Positions 2,311 through 12,238 of a stretch of DNA of 13,484 nucleotides are shown here, in pieces. The notes under the pieces were generated by a model, which ran no database searches, was not told the origin of the DNA, and saw nothing but the letters and a program-made list of their open reading frames with translations. The DNA lies in assembly GCA_043228905.1 (NCBI GenBank), contig JBHGNT010000949.1, positions 1-13,484 on the forward strand, given 5' to 3'. Position numbers and translations under genes: made by a program. Source of the DNA: Azolla caroliniana (lineage: Eukaryota > Plantae > Polypodiophyta). The number at the start of each line of letters is the position of its first letter. Position 1 is the stretch's first letter.

Positions 2311-2558
2311 GGGAAAAGTACAAGGATACCCCTGGAAGTTTGTCTATATTACCAGAATGCCCCTGGAAGTTCCAAATTTACCAAACTACCCTTATGTCCA
2401 AAAAATACACTTTATAAAGTAATTATACACTCAAATCTTTGGTAAATAGGGCTAGTTCAGGTCCATTTCTTCCATCTTTGGTAAATAGGGCTTGTAGATT
2501 TGAGTGTATAATTACTTTATAAAGTGTAATTTTTTGGACATAGGGGTAGTTTGGTAAA
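2311..2558. mobile_element. Mutator (MULE)-like non-autonomous foldback element / MITE, right end truncated
   Basis: Near-perfect inverted repeat 2377-2438 vs 2496-2558 (1 substitution, 1 single-base indel). The left end starts GGGAAAAGTACAAGGATACCCCT, resembling plant MULE TIR starts, with subrepeat CCCCTGGAAGTT twice. 19-bp direct repeat ATCTTTGGTAAATAGGGCT at 2435-2453 and 2474-2492. No TSD found; superfamily assignment is inference. Confidence 0.6.
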
Positions 2559-5485: not shown

Positions 5486-6122
5486 ACCAAATTTGGTCCT
5501 TTACTTTGAATCCATCAAGCACATGGTCTATAATTCTTCCTGAAACAAGTAATTTCAAGTTGGGAGGTCGATTATAATTGAATCTCTATGATGGTCATAG
5601 ATCTCGTAATTATAATAAGTTTCAATGAAAATAAATCCAAATCTATGCTAATTTTACTATATTTGAACTTTTGATATTTTACAATATAATAACTCTTACC
5701 ATGAGAACTCGGTTCAGAATATATATTTGAACCCATTTATATTGTAATGTGCAAGATTGAAGTGAGGAAATATTAGCATTAGACGAAATTTGGGGGGGTA
5801 TCGTTGAGTTTCAACATGGCTAGCCAATGATCGACAACAAAATTGTCTTCGTTATCATAAGCCTCCCACGCACCTTCGTGATCCCATTTGTTGCAAAGTA
5901 GGGCTTGATTCCCAAAACTTGAGAACTTGACTATGAGCTCTATTACCTATCATTTGGGAGATCTCTTGTTATATAAAAATAGTAATATCACCTTTCACCC
6001 ATTCACTGCATGCTCTTCCCTTTTGAACATGCACTTGTTCTTATCCTTGTATTGGTGCTTGGTTTCAATAAAAAGCATGTGAACATATTCACGTTTAATG
6101 TTGCATATTTTTTTATCATCAT

Positions 6123-9100
6123 TGGTACACATGGTGGGCTCCTGCTCACGACGTGTTAGAAAGGAGAGGTGGAGTGTGTATTTCGGTGAGGAAATCAGCG
6201 GATATCATCATCTTGGATCATGGCATATTGATCGAAGGTAGGGCTATGTTTTGCTACTTGGAATGGAGGAATGTAAAATTTGGGGTGCTGAATGTCTACG
6301 CACCTAACATTAGCAATGAGAGGACCTCATTTTGGAGACTGTTGGCAAACAAAATTCCCTCCGTCGACAATTGGATAGTGGCAGGGGATTTTAACATGAC
6401 AGAGAGAGTGGAAGATTGTCTTGGGGCTCATTCGAACTTGCTACATGGGGAGGAGTTTAGAGCGTGGGGTTTCTTAACTTCTATGTTGGGAATCCGAGAC
6501 TCGTGGTATTCTACTATGGCAGTTGAGGTGAATTCCTTAAGGTTCTCACGATTTGGCTAGAAGGAGAGTGAAGGATGTCACTCTAGATTGGACCGCATCT
6601 ATGTGAGCCCCGGGATAGAGGAATGGAGTGGCTTCTCATCCATTCTTGCTGGTTTTACTTATTCGGATCACCTTCCAGTATCCTTGACTCTTGAACCTAT
6701 TTATAAGAAGAAGAGTGAGAGCAATGTGAGGATTCCTCCGAAGATTTTCGGTATCCAAAAGGTTAAGGATGCAATGAATACCATTTGGACGGCATCCCCA
6801 TCAGCCCACGACCCGATACAGGTACTAGAGGAAAATATTATTAATTCTTCTTTGTTTCTTCAGAAAGTGGCTAGGGAGGAGTTGTTAAGGTGTCAATACC
6901 GTCTGCAATGCCTAAGGAAGGCAGTCATCTCAGCTCAAAAGCTCACGCAAGTGGACCCATGTTGTGCTTGGGCGAAAGACAGGCTGCAGGAGGCCACTAG
7001 GTTGCTGCAGGAGGTTAGACAGCAACGTGAGCAATTCCTCTTCAGAAAGTCAGCAGAATGGTGGGCTGTCAAGGGAGATAAAGTTAACAGGGAATTTTTT
7101 CTTGCCAAGACTCTGAAACAGAGAGGAACACATATTCATAGTCTCAAACGGGAGGATGATTCAATGACATTTGATCAAGAGGAAATCTTGCAAATGGCGA
7201 CTAATTACTACAGAGACCTTTTAGCTCCTACGTTGACAAACGACCCTCCGAGTAACCTGATGCATGGTGTAATTACATGCTTGAAAACCAGGATTGGAGA
7301 AGCAGCTAAAGCGCAGTTGTCAAAAGCCATAGAGGAGGAAGAGATTGTAGCGGGGCTAGATAAGATACAGAGTATGGCTTGTCCTGGTGCTGACAGTCTT
7401 CCCAAAGCCTTCTTCAAGGAGTTTTGGGAGCAAATTTTTCCAAGCTTGAAAGCTGGACTGCAAGAGATGTGGAGAACGGGACGGATGCCGAGTAGCTTCA
7501 ATGAAGGCTTGATCTACTTGATTCCGAAATCGGAGACTACGCTGCACGAGATTAAGCAATGGAGGCCCATTACAATTTTAAACCTAATTTATAAAAATTT
7601 TGCTAACATATTAGTGCAGAGAATCAAGCCCTTCCTAGGTGATATCATCCAATCCAATCAAACTGGTTTCATGGAGCATCGTTCTATTATGGACAACGTG
7701 ATTTTGTTTTGGGAGGCTGTTGCAACGGCGAAGGTGACCAATCAAAACTTAGCCTGTCTGATGCTCGACTTCGAGAAAGCCTATGATCGAGTGCAATGGT
7801 CTTTCTTGGAAGAAGTGATGAAGGTCATTGAGCTACCATTGGAATGGAGGTGTGCTGCCCAAGCCTTATATAGGAATGGCTCGAGTAAGGTGCTGATTGC
7901 AGGGAGGAAAGGAGCTCAAATCATTCTTACTCGATCCATCAGGCAGGGTTGTCCTCTTGCCCCCTTTCTTTTCCTTTTTATTACTGAAGCAATGTCTGCC
8001 CTTTTTAATAGCCAAGGGGCAAATCTTCATGGTCTTTCGATCCCTAATGCAAGGAAGTCCCTGTTGGATTCGGAGTTCGCGGACGATACGATGTTATACC
8101 TCCAAGGAAATGAAGCGAATCTTGAGAGGGCACAGAGTGCTATTGAGCTCTTTTGCAAGGCATCGGGAGCGTCCATTAATTGGAAGAAGTCCAAGGGTTT
8201 TTGGATCAGCTTGGAGCCCGAGCCTGTTTGGAATCCAAATGCTGAATTCAAATGGATTGCAAATGGGGAAGCCACTAGGTATCTGGGAACGTGGATTGGG
8301 GTAGATATCGACAAGGGAATTCAACTGCAACATATTCAAAGCAAAATCTGTGACAAAATTCGCAACTGGTCAGGGATGAACTTATCATTGGCTGGCAGGA
8401 TCATAGTAGCTAACCATGTGCTTTTGTCTACATTATGGCATGCAGTTTCAGTGTGGATGTTTTACAAGCAAGCTATTCGTACTGTTAAAGCGTGTATTAG
8501 GGGATTTCTTTGGGCGGGGATGAGGAAAGACAATGCGGCAGCCAAAGTATCATGGTCTACATTGATTCTTCCCAAGAGTAAGGGGGGTTTAGGATTGGTT
8601 GACCCTGGATTGCAGAGTCAGGCATTGTTATGTAATATATTGGTAAGAAGCTTGCTACCCGGTGATGAGTTATGGAAAACATTGATACATAATAGGAGCA
8701 TTCTATGGAGTCCAAGACTGGGTGGGCAATGGAAGTCACACAAAGCGTGGCCTTTTTGCATGGACTTAAAATTGAGGAAATCTAACCGATTGGCTGATCA
8801 TACTTGTATGTCAGTGATGCAGGCGTGGAGTATGCTTCGTGGGCATCTAAGTCGGAATCGTCCAAGTACTAGTGCTGAATGGATGTGCCAACCCCTATCG
8901 TGGAACGAGACCGTGCAATCGCCAAAAGGAATGATGCTTGGACAAAGCAAGCGCATGTCGTGGGCTATATTGCATTGTCTAGGGATACACTCGGTGGCTG
9001 ATTGGCTGCGGTTGTCCGGCAATAATCGTGATCAATTATATGAAGACATGGGAAAGGTCAGAAATGGCAGAAAGATGCTTGACGTAGTCAATACAGCTGT

Positions 9101-10214
9101 CTCCTCGCTTCCTATTGGTAATGAGGAAGAGGGTGAATGGTCTGGACAATGTGATGGTACCAGAAATATTATCAATGTCAGGGGTCTAGGAAAGAGTGGG
9201 AAGACCGTCCCGATGGGATTATTAGATGAAAGTGCAGGCTGGTACCCTATTAGAATTGTGGCAAGACACGGAAAGAAATGGAGGGTGAATCCACCAGTCG
9301 AAGAGGTCGAGGAGGATTGGATCTTGTACGTGGTTGAAGGCAAGCCTCTCGAGCGCGTAGAATGGGATCTCGCTGAATATAGGTGGAAGGGAGAACAAGC
9401 TAAATCACTAGGTTTCTTCAAATACTCGACGCGCTTGGGGAGAAAGTTAGGTTCGTATCGTGAGAAATGTGCCAACAAGTGGACCCATGCAGCTATTGAT
9501 TCAGTCTTCGTGGATAGAACCAGGAGCAGGATATGGAACTCATCCCTTCCCGAGCGGATCAAAGTGTTTTTCTGGTTAATCACCCATCGGGTTGTTCCAA
9601 CAGGAGAGTGGCTTGGGAATAGAGGCGGCATGAGTGGTTGCAAGGCGTGTAGTGCGAGCTTGGAGGACATCGCTCATTGTTTGTGGTGTTGCCCACGAGC
9701 GCAAGAAATCTGGCTGAGGAGCTTAAGAATCTTGGCTCGTTTTGGGGTTGAGGTTCATGTATCGAGCGCAGCAATCACTTGGCTGGCCACTGAATCGGCC
9801 TCGTGGTTTCAAGGGTGGGATGGAAACAGTCCTTCTTTAATGGTAAAGCAAGGATCTGTGCAACCAGCAATGCAAGGAGGTTTATTCTTCTTACAGGAAC
9901 GCTACGTGGACATATGGGTATTAGTGGTCGGCCTTACGGTCTGGCAAGTGTGGGTATCTCGGTGCAAGGAGACCCTCGCAGGTAAACGAACCCCACTGGT
10001 TGAGAATTTAATGATGATCTGGTTTAATCTTATTTCTACGTTGCGAGGTGAGTTTGAAAGTCTTCAAGGGCCATCTGATGCAAGTGAAGAAGCTAGAGCT
10101 CGATTCCTTCGGAAATGGAGCGGTTCGTCGATGCTACAGATAATGGATGGTAAAGTGAAGTGGAATTATCAACCACCGCGGTGGCTGTTCCCTCCAAGTG
10201 TTCCTAACATCTAG
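6123..10214 (+). pseudogene. L1 ORF2p: AP endonuclease + reverse transcriptase + C-terminal zinc finger (zf-RVT), interrupted by one TAG
   Basis: ORFs 6153..6560 and 6588..10214 are in the same frame, separated by TAG at 6558-6560. APE motifs: NVYAPN, AGDFN, SRLDRIYVS, SDHLPV. RT motifs: WRPITILN, QTGF, LDFEKAYDRV, IRQGCPLAPFLF, FADD (8076-8087), RYLG. Zinc finger CKAC-x8-H-x4-C at 9639-9692. Confidence 0.95.
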
Positions 10215-10468
10215 ATGGGTGCTGCCATGAGGAGCGAATGGAGGACATCTATGCTGAATTCTGTTTTGTATGAGGCTCACGTGGAGAATAGGTGTTCGAG
10301 TAATGCTATACACATAGAATGATGTGGTGTTTTGGAGTTGTTTTTTTATGTTGTTTCATCTACACATTGTTTTCCTTTGACATGCAAGATGTCTTGTAAG
10401 ATATGAGTTGTAAATGATTCCTTTGTACATTCTTAACTAATGGAAGTAGATGTTTTTGGAAAAAAAAA
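6123..10468 (+). mobile_element. L1-clade LINE (non-LTR retrotransposon), 5'-truncated within the endonuclease domain, no ORF1
   Basis: Composition shifts to higher GC at ~6123. ORF2 has APE, RT and CCHC domains, followed by a ~245 bp T-rich 3' UTR (10215-10459) and an A9 tail at 10460-10468. No TSD identified, so the 5' boundary is approximate. Confidence 0.93.
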
Positions 10469-10662
10469 TATAGATCACCTCTTTTACCATCAATTGCCTT
10501 TAGCAAGTATTGAACACTTCACCCTTTTGTTCTAAAATTAGCTCTTACCATTGTTGTTGACTTCTTCTTTTTTACATTTCCTTTTGATAATGACCAAAAT
10601 CCCAACCTATTATAAAACTTGACTTTGTTGGCTCTTTTCTGCTGTCACATGTACCATATCAT

Positions 10663-10810
10663 GAGGTCAAAAACCATAATGACTAAATGCATGGACTACT
10701 CACCTTTTGATGCCAATGATGTTAGTTTCACATTCCTTGTAAAGGTAAACATTGTCAACACTCTAACAATATTTGATACATGAGTGGGACTATTATCAAA
10801 TACACCACTT
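10663..10810 (+). repeat. Direct repeat copy 1 (~150 bp) on the left flank of the Penelope-like insertion
   Basis: GAGGTCAAAAACCATAATGAC...TCAAATACACC-ACTT aligns by eye to 12089-12238 with 3 substitutions and 2 single-base indels. Confidence 0.97.
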
Positions 10811-11293
10811 ACTCCCGTCTTAAAAAGCAAAATTCATAATCTTTCAAATTACGCCCTTAGTAAATTAGAAATCAAACTTTTAAACCTAGGACTTTTGTTT
10901 ATACCCCCCTGCCCCCCACCTACTAACCAATCCATTCTTCAAGAATACCAAAACCTCAGTAGATCCTTGAGACTTAAACATTTCTTTAAAGACTTAAACT
11001 CTCCCCCCTCTAATCCCTTCAAACTACCCAACCCGAATTGGAACCCTCCTACTAAGTATCCACCGTTAGAGTCTATACTCCATAAACACAATATCTCTCT
11101 CTCCACAAACCTCCATAATAATATACTGCCTAATACCAAAATACCACTACACCTCCAAATAGCACTAACCAGCCGTAGAAAAAACAAACAAATAATCATC
11201 CTACTAGCGGACAAAAACATCGGAGTTTGTGTCCTCGATAAAAAAACATACCTAGATGAAGCCCTAGAACATTTTTCCGACATCACTACATAT
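10811..11293 (+). pseudogene. N-terminal part of a PLE reverse transcriptase (through the DKG-type motif); RT core and GIY-YIG endonuclease absent
   Basis: Within ORF 10784..11407: IHNLSNYALSKLEIKLLNLGLLFIP, LSRSLRLKHFF, PFKLPNPNWNPP, ALTSRRKNKQIIILLADKNIGVCVLDKKTYLDEALEHFSDITTY. Matches the PLE pattern NLS..LS..E..LL..GL.F.P / R.LRLK.FF / AL..L....IVIKPADKG..VV.D...Y......LSD...Y. Homology ends at 11293; the rest of the ORF translates microsatellite. Confidence 0.85.
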
Positions 11294-11415
11294 GTATTTT
11301 ATATCTTCACTCATTTCTTTTCTCTCTCTCTCTCTCTCCCTTTTTTCTCCCTTCTCCCTTCCCCCTCCCCTATACCTCTCACTACCTTTTTGTACACATT
11401 TCACTAAAATCCATA

Positions 11416-11457
<42 letters not shown>

Positions 11458-11845
11458 CTCTTTTCCCTCAAACCTTCTCCCCACCACTCTTACTAACTTC
11501 CTTTTTCTTTCCCTTCTTATTCCCTTCCTTTATTTTCCCCTTCTCACCATCTTATGTTTACTTACTTATAATTACATACCCTATCACTCATTCATTTCCC
11601 CTTATCACCCACTCCCACTCCCACTCACTCATCTGTCTTATCACCCTATCAATCTTCCTATCACCAACTCATTTTCCCCTTTATCACCACCCCCCCTATC
11701 ATCAAGATCTTCCACCTTAAATCCTTACAGCCTTCTATCTATTTACACTCTTATTACACCCCACTCACTATGATTATACTTTCCCTCTTTCTCCTCCCTT
11801 CCCCATTCTCAACATCCTATATAAACCACCTTTTTTATTTACATG
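11294..11845 (+). repeat. Polypyrimidine / low-complexity tract including (TC)9 at 11321-11338 and (TC)18 at 11418-11453
   Basis: Read directly; the + strand has almost no G. Probably the PLE 3' UTR. Confidence 0.85.
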
Positions 11846-11898
11846 ACCTTTTGCACTGATGAGCTCTAAGCGAGCGAAACTAGTTTGTTGCATAAGGT
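11846..11898 (+). ncRNA. Minimal type I hammerhead ribozyme motif
   Basis: Core CTGATGA at 11856-11862; stem II GCTC/GAGC (11863-11866, 11872-11875) with loop TAAGC; GAAA at 11876-11879; palindromic stem III AC-TA-GT; triplet GTT at 11883-11885; outer helix ACCTTTTGCA (11846-11855) with TGCATAAGGT (11889-11898), 9/10 paired. Confidence 0.85.
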
Positions 11899-11929
11899 AT
11901 TTCCTTTCATTTTAATGAAAATTTCTTGA

Positions 11930-11932
<3 letters not shown>

Positions 11933-11990
<58 letters not shown>
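11933..11990. repeat. (TC)29 microsatellite
   Basis: Read directly from the sequence. Confidence 0.97.
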
Positions 11991-11993
<3 letters not shown>

Positions 11994-12088
11994 TTTGTGC
12001 TTAGAATCTCTTCTTTTCCTATTACATTATCTACCATATCACAAAGTCACCCGCACTCTTTGCTACAACCGAATGGTTAATAACAAAA

Positions 12089-12238
12089 GAGGTCAAAAAC
12101 CATAATGACTAAATGCATGGACTACTACACCTTTTGATGCCAATGATGTTAGTTTCACACTCCTTGTAAAGGTAAACGTTGTCAACACTCTAACAATATT
12201 TGATACATGAGTGGGACTATTATCAACTACACCTACTT
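12089..12238 (+). repeat. Direct repeat copy 2 (~150 bp) on the right flank of the Penelope-like insertion
   Basis: Aligns to 10663-10810 and runs on into the downstream retropepsin relic. Confidence 0.97.

What the first reader, a model, noticed from the sequence alone, without database searches (positions are those of the whole stretch)
11846..11898. Minimal hammerhead ribozyme with palindromic helix III, likely needing dimerisation
Seen: the conserved core is complete (CUGAUGA, 4-bp stem II, GAAA), helix III is reduced to AC-UA-GU inside the perfect 10-nt palindrome AAACUAGUUU (11877-11886), and the predicted cleavage triplet is GUU (cut after 11885). Known: PLE hammerheads have very short palindromic helix III and are thought to cleave as dimers from tandem copies. 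Inference: a 2-nt loop cannot close in a monomer and only one motif is in the window, so cleavage would need a second transcript. GUU may be a C-to-T decay of GUC. Two helix I registers compete (GCA/UGU next to the site versus the longer 10-bp helix shifted by 3 nt), which could act as an inactive/active switch.
Basis: partly seen in the sequence, partly recalled or inferred. Interest (0 to 1): 0.75.

Follow-up and report, generated by a model that had tools for sequence, protein, structure and literature searches.

The report
Dimer-type hammerhead of plant Penelope retroelement
This is a real, conserved hammerhead ribozyme motif near the 3' end of a broken, endonuclease-less Penelope-like jumping gene in a land plant (likely a fern), predicted to cut only when two copies pair up; the arrangement is already known from a spikemoss.

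Summary
The motif is real (0 of 1500 shuffles give a strict match). It is a type I hammerhead about 200 nt before the 3' end of a 1.28-kb, internally deleted copy of a two-ORF, endonuclease-less Penelope-like element (PLE). The copy is flanked by a 144-bp duplication, and the empty site exists in another sample.

From 49 related loci: 32 hammerheads, distal helix I covaries, and helix III is always a 10-nt palindrome with the loop flipping UA/AU. This supports dimer cleavage. Tandem units would supply the partner ribozyme; this lone copy has none in cis.

Extras: a TATA box at fixed spacing upstream; a box plus small hairpin after which insertions end (7 of 9), never at the cut site; one subfamily joined to plant telomere repeats, most not. 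Cleavage is untested. Known kind (Selaginella EN- PLEs). The scan found this family before on another piece of this genome (e1-10619883).

The parts
10663..10806 (.). Left copy of a 144-bp flanking duplication (target DNA)
   Evidence: The empty site with a single copy is seen in run X3 (joint 10662 to 12089).
10804..11293 (+). 5'-truncated remnant of PLE ORF2: pre-RT N-terminal region up to the DKN motif; 3-nt microhomology with the target at the 5' junction
   Evidence: 87% identical to P0001; 97.7% DNA identity to L001 1560-2042; junction.
11293..11298 (+). Internal deletion joint: about 1.4 kb (RT core, thumb, start of 3' UTR) missing
   Evidence: Family contigs continue into the RT at 11293 (loose ends); alignment to L038, L002, L003.
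11299..11817 (+). Pyrimidine-rich 3' UTR of the element with (TC)n tracts
   Evidence: 80-83% identical to L001, L003, L038; multi-copy depth.
11818..11825 (+). TATA box, predicted internal promoter for the next unit
   Evidence: TATA motif 36-39 nt before C3 in 28 of 30 copies; function inferred.
11846..11898 (+). Type I hammerhead: distal helix I 11846-50/11894-98, proximal helix I 11853-55/11886-88, core, helix II 11863-66/11872-75, palindromic helix III, predicted cut after 11885
11933..11990 (+). (TC)29 tract inside the terminal repeat
   Evidence: present at this place in several subfamilies.
12052..12078 (+). Conserved box (CGCACTCCTT-like, one mismatch here) followed by a 4-bp/4-nt hairpin at 12067-12078; candidate RT initiation signal
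   Evidence: Box after 26 of 32 cut sites; hairpin pairs covary.
12085..12088 (+). 3' end of the insertion, 203 nt past the predicted cut and about 20 nt before the ORF1 start of a following unit
   Evidence: Depth drop and loose ends at 12085-12087 in runs X1, X3, X6, X10.
12089..12233 (.). Right copy of the flanking duplication (97% identical to the left)

Best explanation
The motif is a conserved type I hammerhead in the terminal repeat (pLTR) of a two-ORF, endonuclease-less Penelope-like element, and it likely cuts after its GUU only as a domain-swapped dimer, two palindromes pairing into a shared helix III. Shown: element anatomy, tandem units of about 5.5 kb, conserved core and palindrome, covarying distal helix I, fixed TATA spacing, insertion ends clustered after a box and hairpin. 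Inferred: transcription starts at the TATA box just before one ribozyme and reads through to the next; the two ribozymes pair and release a unit-length RNA that may be circularised; the RT starts copying about 30-50 nt past the box, at a telomere overhang or an internal DNA break, and passes through an intact or re-ligated ribozyme. This copy is a dead, solitary by-product: one ribozyme, no RT core, and a subfamily sequence that favours misfolding, so it probably cuts poorly or only in trans.
For: Upstream ORF remnant 87% identical to a 621-aa RT-only PLE protein. No GIY-YIG domain in ORF1 or ORF2. Slippery site at the ORF1/ORF2 overlap in 38 of 38 junctions found. 32 model matches in 31 of 50 sources. 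97.5% of cells paired; 4 of 14 pairs with two-sided change, all in distal helix I; 0 of 500 shuffles reach the cell count. Palindrome kept through a loop flip. In all 18 variants the monomer minimum-energy fold pairs core bases with the palindrome and is inactive. Tandem unit of 5531 bp in L001. L007 ends in a plant telomere array and L009 is 5'-truncated and telomere-capped. Dimer-dependent cleavage of short-palindromic-helix-III type I ribozymes is published (PMC4209133, parts 1-2 read; PMC7229834, passages).
Against: No cleavage or RNA data. No DNA end maps to the cut site (0 of 9 3' ends; 0 of 9 upstream copies start there). No single contig holds both ribozymes of one unit. Helices II and III never vary, so they carry no covariation, and that alignment was fitted to the model. 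Nearest-neighbour energies put the active dimer 15.8 kcal/mol above an inactive 10-bp-palindrome dimer for this copy (range 3.0-19.6; the active dimer beats two monomers in only 5 of 18 variants); such models ignore tertiary core contacts. 48 of 49 loci come from one series of short-read assemblies, so they are not independent species, and tandem joins could be assembly artefacts.
Confidence: 0.78

Rival explanations
1. The fold is kept mainly as a structural or dimerisation signal (for the RT, ORF1 or RNA packaging) and rarely or never cuts in vivo; the invariant U17 extends the palindrome to a 10-bp duplex that locks two RNAs together in an inactive state.
For: All 9 mapped 3' ends lie downstream of the ribozyme, so templates carried it intact. 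The cofold minimum-energy dimer of the window copy is the 10-bp inactive duplex, and C at position 17 narrows the gap by 2.0-6.7 kcal/mol in the model. PLE ribozymes cut weakly in vitro (PMC4209133).
Against: The catalytic core is fully conserved in 30 of 32 copies, which is hard to explain without selection on chemistry. GUU is listed among cleavable NUH sites (PMC3138052, passages). Circular templates explain intact ribozymes in the DNA copies equally well.
Confidence: 0.12
2. It cuts as a monomer in vivo, helped by loop I-loop II tertiary contacts or proteins; the palindrome is incidental.
For: Long helix I with an internal loop; PMC4209133 calls Selaginella PLE ribozymes canonical, and PMC7229834 reports some monomer cleavage for a 2-bp helix III with a tetraloop.
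Against: The loop here is 2 nt; the loop changes only in a way that keeps the palindrome (25 vs 7); loop II and the internal loop vary widely in length and sequence.
Confidence: 0.07
3. One reading: two helix I registers form a selected on/off device, and GUU is a decayed GUC.
For: The shifted register is the predicted monomer fold in the window copy and occurs in two distant subfamilies (L001 group, L026 group).
Against: Weak in 12 of 18 variants; GUU in 32 of 32 copies.
Confidence: 0.03

Closest known systems
Telomere-associated EN- PLEs of Selaginella moellendorffii (Coprina Sm1/Sm2) with canonical type I hammerheads in their pLTRs (PMC4209133, parts 1-2 read; PMC13159263, passages)
   Same: Land-plant, RT-only PLE; type I hammerhead in the pLTR; an RT-only S. 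moellendorffii protein (P0089, 40% identical over the RT region) falls in the same well-supported clade.
   Different: Different host lineage. Two ORFs with a frameshift site, whereas Coprina is described as usually single-ORF. Most subfamilies here lack telomere repeats (25 of 30) and show non-telomeric flanks. I could not see the Selaginella ribozyme figure, and P0089 is not confirmed to be Sm1 or Sm2.
Athena/Terminon 3' module: hammerhead plus reverse-complement telomere repeats (PMC6431247 and PMC12477314, passages; the primary paper is not held)
   Same: No endonuclease, two ORFs, tandem chains, 5' truncation capped by telomere repeats, 3' end on a telomere array (L007, L009).
   Different: Telomere repeats lie about 120-440 nt after the cut rather than immediately next to it, and are absent from this copy and most subfamilies; ends track a box and hairpin instead.
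Dimer-acting type I hammerheads of amphibian non-LTR retrozymes (PMC7229834, passages; bioRxiv 10.64898/2026.07.22.740005, abstract)
   Same: Very short palindromic helix III, 4-bp helix II, predicted dimer cleavage, proposed origin in PLE pLTRs.
   Different: [quoted passage not shown]
min-HHR of metazoan PLEs (PMC4209133)
   Same: Palindromic positions around 15.2-16.2, G10.1-C11.1 pair, pLTR location.
   Different: No extra base between A9 and 10.1, helix II only 4 bp, and a long two-part helix I.

Membership tests
Type I hammerhead ribozyme | Conserved core CUGANGA ... GAAA and NUH triplet | tested here: met
   intact in 30 of 32 family copies; triplet GUU.
Type I hammerhead ribozyme | Helices II and III closed, helix I open; pairing supported by variation | tested here: met
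   two-sided changes in 4 of 5 distal helix I pairs; helices II and III invariant (uninformative).
Type I hammerhead ribozyme | Rfam gathering score | tested here: not met
   HH9 21.7 bits vs 52; no other hammerhead family listed.
Type I hammerhead ribozyme | Loop I-loop II tertiary contacts | tested here: inconclusive
   Loop II is 5-9 nt and the internal loop is variable, with no fixed bases.
Type I hammerhead ribozyme | Self-cleavage | not testable with these tools
   No assay; no raw RNA reads listed.
min-HHR (Cervera and de la Pena 2014) | Unpaired base between 9 and 10.1, enlarged helix II, short helix I | tested here: not met
   Helix II follows A9 directly and is 4 bp; helix I has 8 or more pairs.
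EN-deficient PLE (Coprina/Athena type) | PLE RT with DKG/DKN motif and no GIY-YIG endonuclease | tested here: met
EN-deficient PLE (Coprina/Athena type) | Hammerhead near the 3' end, pLTR/tandem arrangement | tested here: met
   Hammerhead 279-1109 nt after ORF2 or 2.5-2.7 kb before it; 5531-bp unit in L001.
EN-deficient PLE (Coprina/Athena type) | Reverse-complement telomere repeats after the hammerhead; terminal location | tested here: inconclusive
   Met in 5 of 30 copies, with L007 and L009 showing telomere joins; not met in the window copy, which is internal and has none.
Coprina clade specifically | RT groups with named Coprina elements | tested here: inconclusive
   Groups with RT-only proteins of Selaginella, Cryptomeria, Gb_11119 and Closterium (FastTree, 73 of 75 rows); no named Coprina or Athena reference was in the tree.
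Retrozyme (LTR or non-LTR) | Non-coding short tandem unit, or LTRs with a type III hammerhead | tested here: not met
   One type I motif, a PLE ORF remnant, and no tandem repeat of the motif in the window.

The most novel reading that the evidence does not exclude
A plant lineage of telomere-type, endonuclease-less PLEs has largely left the telomeres and inserts at internal DNA breaks. A dimer-only hammerhead acts as a two-pLTR counter that licenses only full units for cutting and circularisation, the invariant U17 tunes it by extending the palindrome to 10 bp, and a separate box-plus-hairpin signal fixes where the telomerase-like RT starts. The 144-bp flanking duplication, whose two copies match two different empty alleles, would record break repair by template switching to the homologous chromosome.
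Probability: 0.25. Interest if true: 0.65.

Novelty: new member of a known kind. Interest (0 to 1): 0.36.

Why it matters
The role of PLE hammerheads is open (PMC8557442, passages: function unclear). This family offers a natural test set: at least eight subfamilies sharing one core, a palindrome-preserving loop flip, telomeric and non-telomeric members, a mapped empty site and a candidate RT start signal. The ribozyme itself is ordinary for PLEs. What may be new is the evidence on how an endonuclease-less PLE spreads at internal sites in a plant.

Tried and rejected
No own genome was held, so copy number was not counted; summed contig depth (about 6400 vs 56 in run X1) only shows that it is multi-copy. 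No RNA holder was listed; X14 turned out to be probably DNA; no evidence on expression either way. The Atlas was unavailable. The maximum-likelihood tree timed out and was replaced by FastTree. The flanking direct repeats as LTRs of the element: rejected, because the empty site holds one copy. GUU as decay: rejected. Register switch as a family feature: rejected. Retrozyme: rejected. A search for flanking duplications in 7 other loci found none, but their 5' ends are mostly not in the contigs, so this is uninformative. Rfam miRNA hits are AT-rich hairpin noise. Four look-ups for three primary papers failed (Gladyshev 2007, Arkhipova 2017, Lin 2016), so their content is taken from reviews. Paper searches showed no report of fern EN- PLE hammerheads. 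The library is partial and supplements were not read, so absence from print is not established. Sequence look-up in earlier findings was blank.

Full report
Observation. The motif is the only descriptor hit in the window. Of 1500 dinucleotide shuffles, 16 gave a loose hit, 4 a hit with a 4-bp helix II, and none a strict hit. Rfam scores it only weakly (HH9, 21.7 bits, E 0.18). The monomer folds no better than shuffles (z -1.45), and its minimum-energy fold uses the shifted helix I and buries core bases.

Context. The motif lies in a 1.28-kb segment (10807-12088) between two 97%-identical 144-bp repeats. A single-copy contig of run X3 joins 10662 directly to 12089, so the repeats are duplicated target DNA and the insertion is absent in that sample. 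The segment starts with an ORF remnant 87% identical to a 621-aa protein. That protein and its relatives carry a PLE-type RT with a DKN motif and no GIY-YIG domain. The remnant stops just after DKN and joins the 3' UTR, about 1.4 kb being deleted. This copy cannot make an RT.

The family. A scan of metagenome contigs gave 49 loci, 48 of them from one series of assemblies. Full units have an ORF1 of about 850 aa with no significant Pfam match (best E 0.007) overlapping ORF2 at a slippery A-AAA-AAC site followed by a predicted stem-loop (38 of 38 junctions found). L001 shows a 5531-bp tandem unit. In a FastTree tree of 73 of 75 proteins (two under 390 aa left out), the family is sister to a gymnosperm group, within an RT-only clade that includes a Selaginella moellendorffii protein and, more basally, Closterium. 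With the plant telomere repeat in related loci, this points to a land plant. 'Fern' is an inference from that position and from earlier unchecked notes. L007 runs from the pLTR into a (CCCTAAA)n array, and L009 is truncated in ORF1 and capped by such repeats, which are the signatures of telomere-attaching EN- PLEs. Telomere-like repeats follow the ribozyme in only 5 of 30 copies (five of the other 25 had under 300 nt to inspect), and not in the window.

The ribozyme across copies. A model built from 5 close copies found 32 matches in 31 of 50 sources; two have core substitutions. The triplet is GUU in all 32. The 10-nt palindrome is kept in all, with a UA loop in 25 and an AU loop in 7. On 20 distinct rows, 97.5% of cells pair and 4 of 14 pairs change on both sides, all in distal helix I; 0 of 500 shuffles reach the cell count and 7 of 500 the pair count. 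Helices II and III are invariant, and the alignment leans to the model. The catalytic helix I register has 3 or more proximal pairs in 16 of 18 variants; the shifted register reaches 7 of 10 in only 6 of 18. The window's U at 11888 (a G-U pair) is shared with L003 and L038, whereas most copies have C. A TATA motif lies 36-39 nt before C3 in 28 of 30 copies.

Where insertions end. A conserved box follows 26 of 32 cut sites; four misses had too little sequence, one copy ends earlier, one lacks it, and the L029 match is probably chance. It is followed by a 4-bp hairpin with two-sided changes in 3 of 4 pairs (13 sequences; 0 of 500 shuffles for cells; the structure was picked from the same alignment). 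Seven of 9 mapped 3' ends fall 29-53 nt after the box start; L033 (+131) and L012 (before the box) do not. Loose ends in four runs cluster at 12085-12087. No end lies at the cut site, and all 9 upstream copies include the TATA box. So the templates carried an uncut or re-joined ribozyme, and copying was more than unit length.

Mechanism. Most likely the ribozyme works as the published dimer type: a 2-bp helix III with a 2-nt loop cannot close, and two palindromes form a shared helix. PMC4209133 (parts 1-2 of 4 read) describes this architecture as canonical type I, reports canonical type I motifs in Selaginella PLEs, and proposes cleavage and circularisation; PMC7229834 (passages) shows dimer-enhanced cleavage in axolotl repeats. 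In a two-pLTR unit, the TATA-driven transcript would carry two ribozymes in cis. This is inferred, since no contig holds both. Energy models caution that an inactive 10-bp palindrome dimer is preferred by 15.8 kcal/mol for this copy (3.0-19.6 across 18 variants), and that U17 contributes to this. These models omit tertiary contacts. The window copy, solitary and in a high-barrier subfamily, is probably a poor cutter.

Comparison and novelty. Hammerheads in the pLTRs of EN- PLEs, including a land plant, are known, and EN- PLEs are listed for Selaginella, pine and spruce (PMC9033089, passages). The hammerhead-plus-telomere 3' module is known from Terminons (PMC6431247, PMC12477314, passages). 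EN- PLEs are described as generally terminal, with unexplained genome-wide EN- families in Chara (PMC8557442, passages). My searches found no fern report, but three primary papers were not held and no supplements were read. An earlier, unreviewed note of this scan on another piece of this genome reached the same reading, including a second RNA signal (e1-10619883). I had seen the telomere links and the downstream sequences before that note; the box and hairpin counts were made after it. Verdict: real, a new member of a known kind, interest 0.36.

Noticed in passing
window 10663-10806 and 12089-12233: The two flanking copies differ at 12127 (indel), 12160 and 12178. The single-copy contig of run X1 carries the left-copy letters, and the empty-site contig of X3 shows none of these three differences from the right copy. 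Either the insertion joined two alleles during break repair, or the repeats diverged and the element was later excised; beyond 12233 X1 matches the window and X3 does not. Two samples only.
   Followed up: partly
window 6099-10467: L1-like LINE (endonuclease, RT, zf-RVT) with one in-frame stop at 6558-6560 and an A-rich tail near 10460, about 200 bp before the PLE insertion.
   Followed up: partly
window 2377-2558: MITE-like foldback with 30-nt arms, 97% complementary; the source of the spurious miRNA hits.
   Followed up: no
L029 5493-5809: Two hammerheads 257 nt apart, the second with core substitutions: a possible short tandem (retrozyme-like) derivative at a contig end.
   Followed up: no
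L001 1332 and 20 other distinct junctions: Conserved -1 frameshift site and downstream stem-loop between ORF1 and ORF2.
   Followed up: partly
L001 5300-5570: ORF1 contains Asn-Pro repeats encoded by telomere-like AACCCT units.
   Followed up: no
P0080-P0087, P0091, P0096: RT-only relatives in Cryptomeria, Gb_11119 (label suggests Ginkgo; recalled) and Closterium; the branching roughly follows plant phylogeny.
   Followed up: partly
L019, L026, L001: Signs of exchange between subfamilies: L019's second unit has an ORF2 piece like the window's subfamily, and L026 shares L001's ribozyme 3' arm and ORF1 start despite a 64%-identical RT; recombination or assembly chimera.
   Followed up: no
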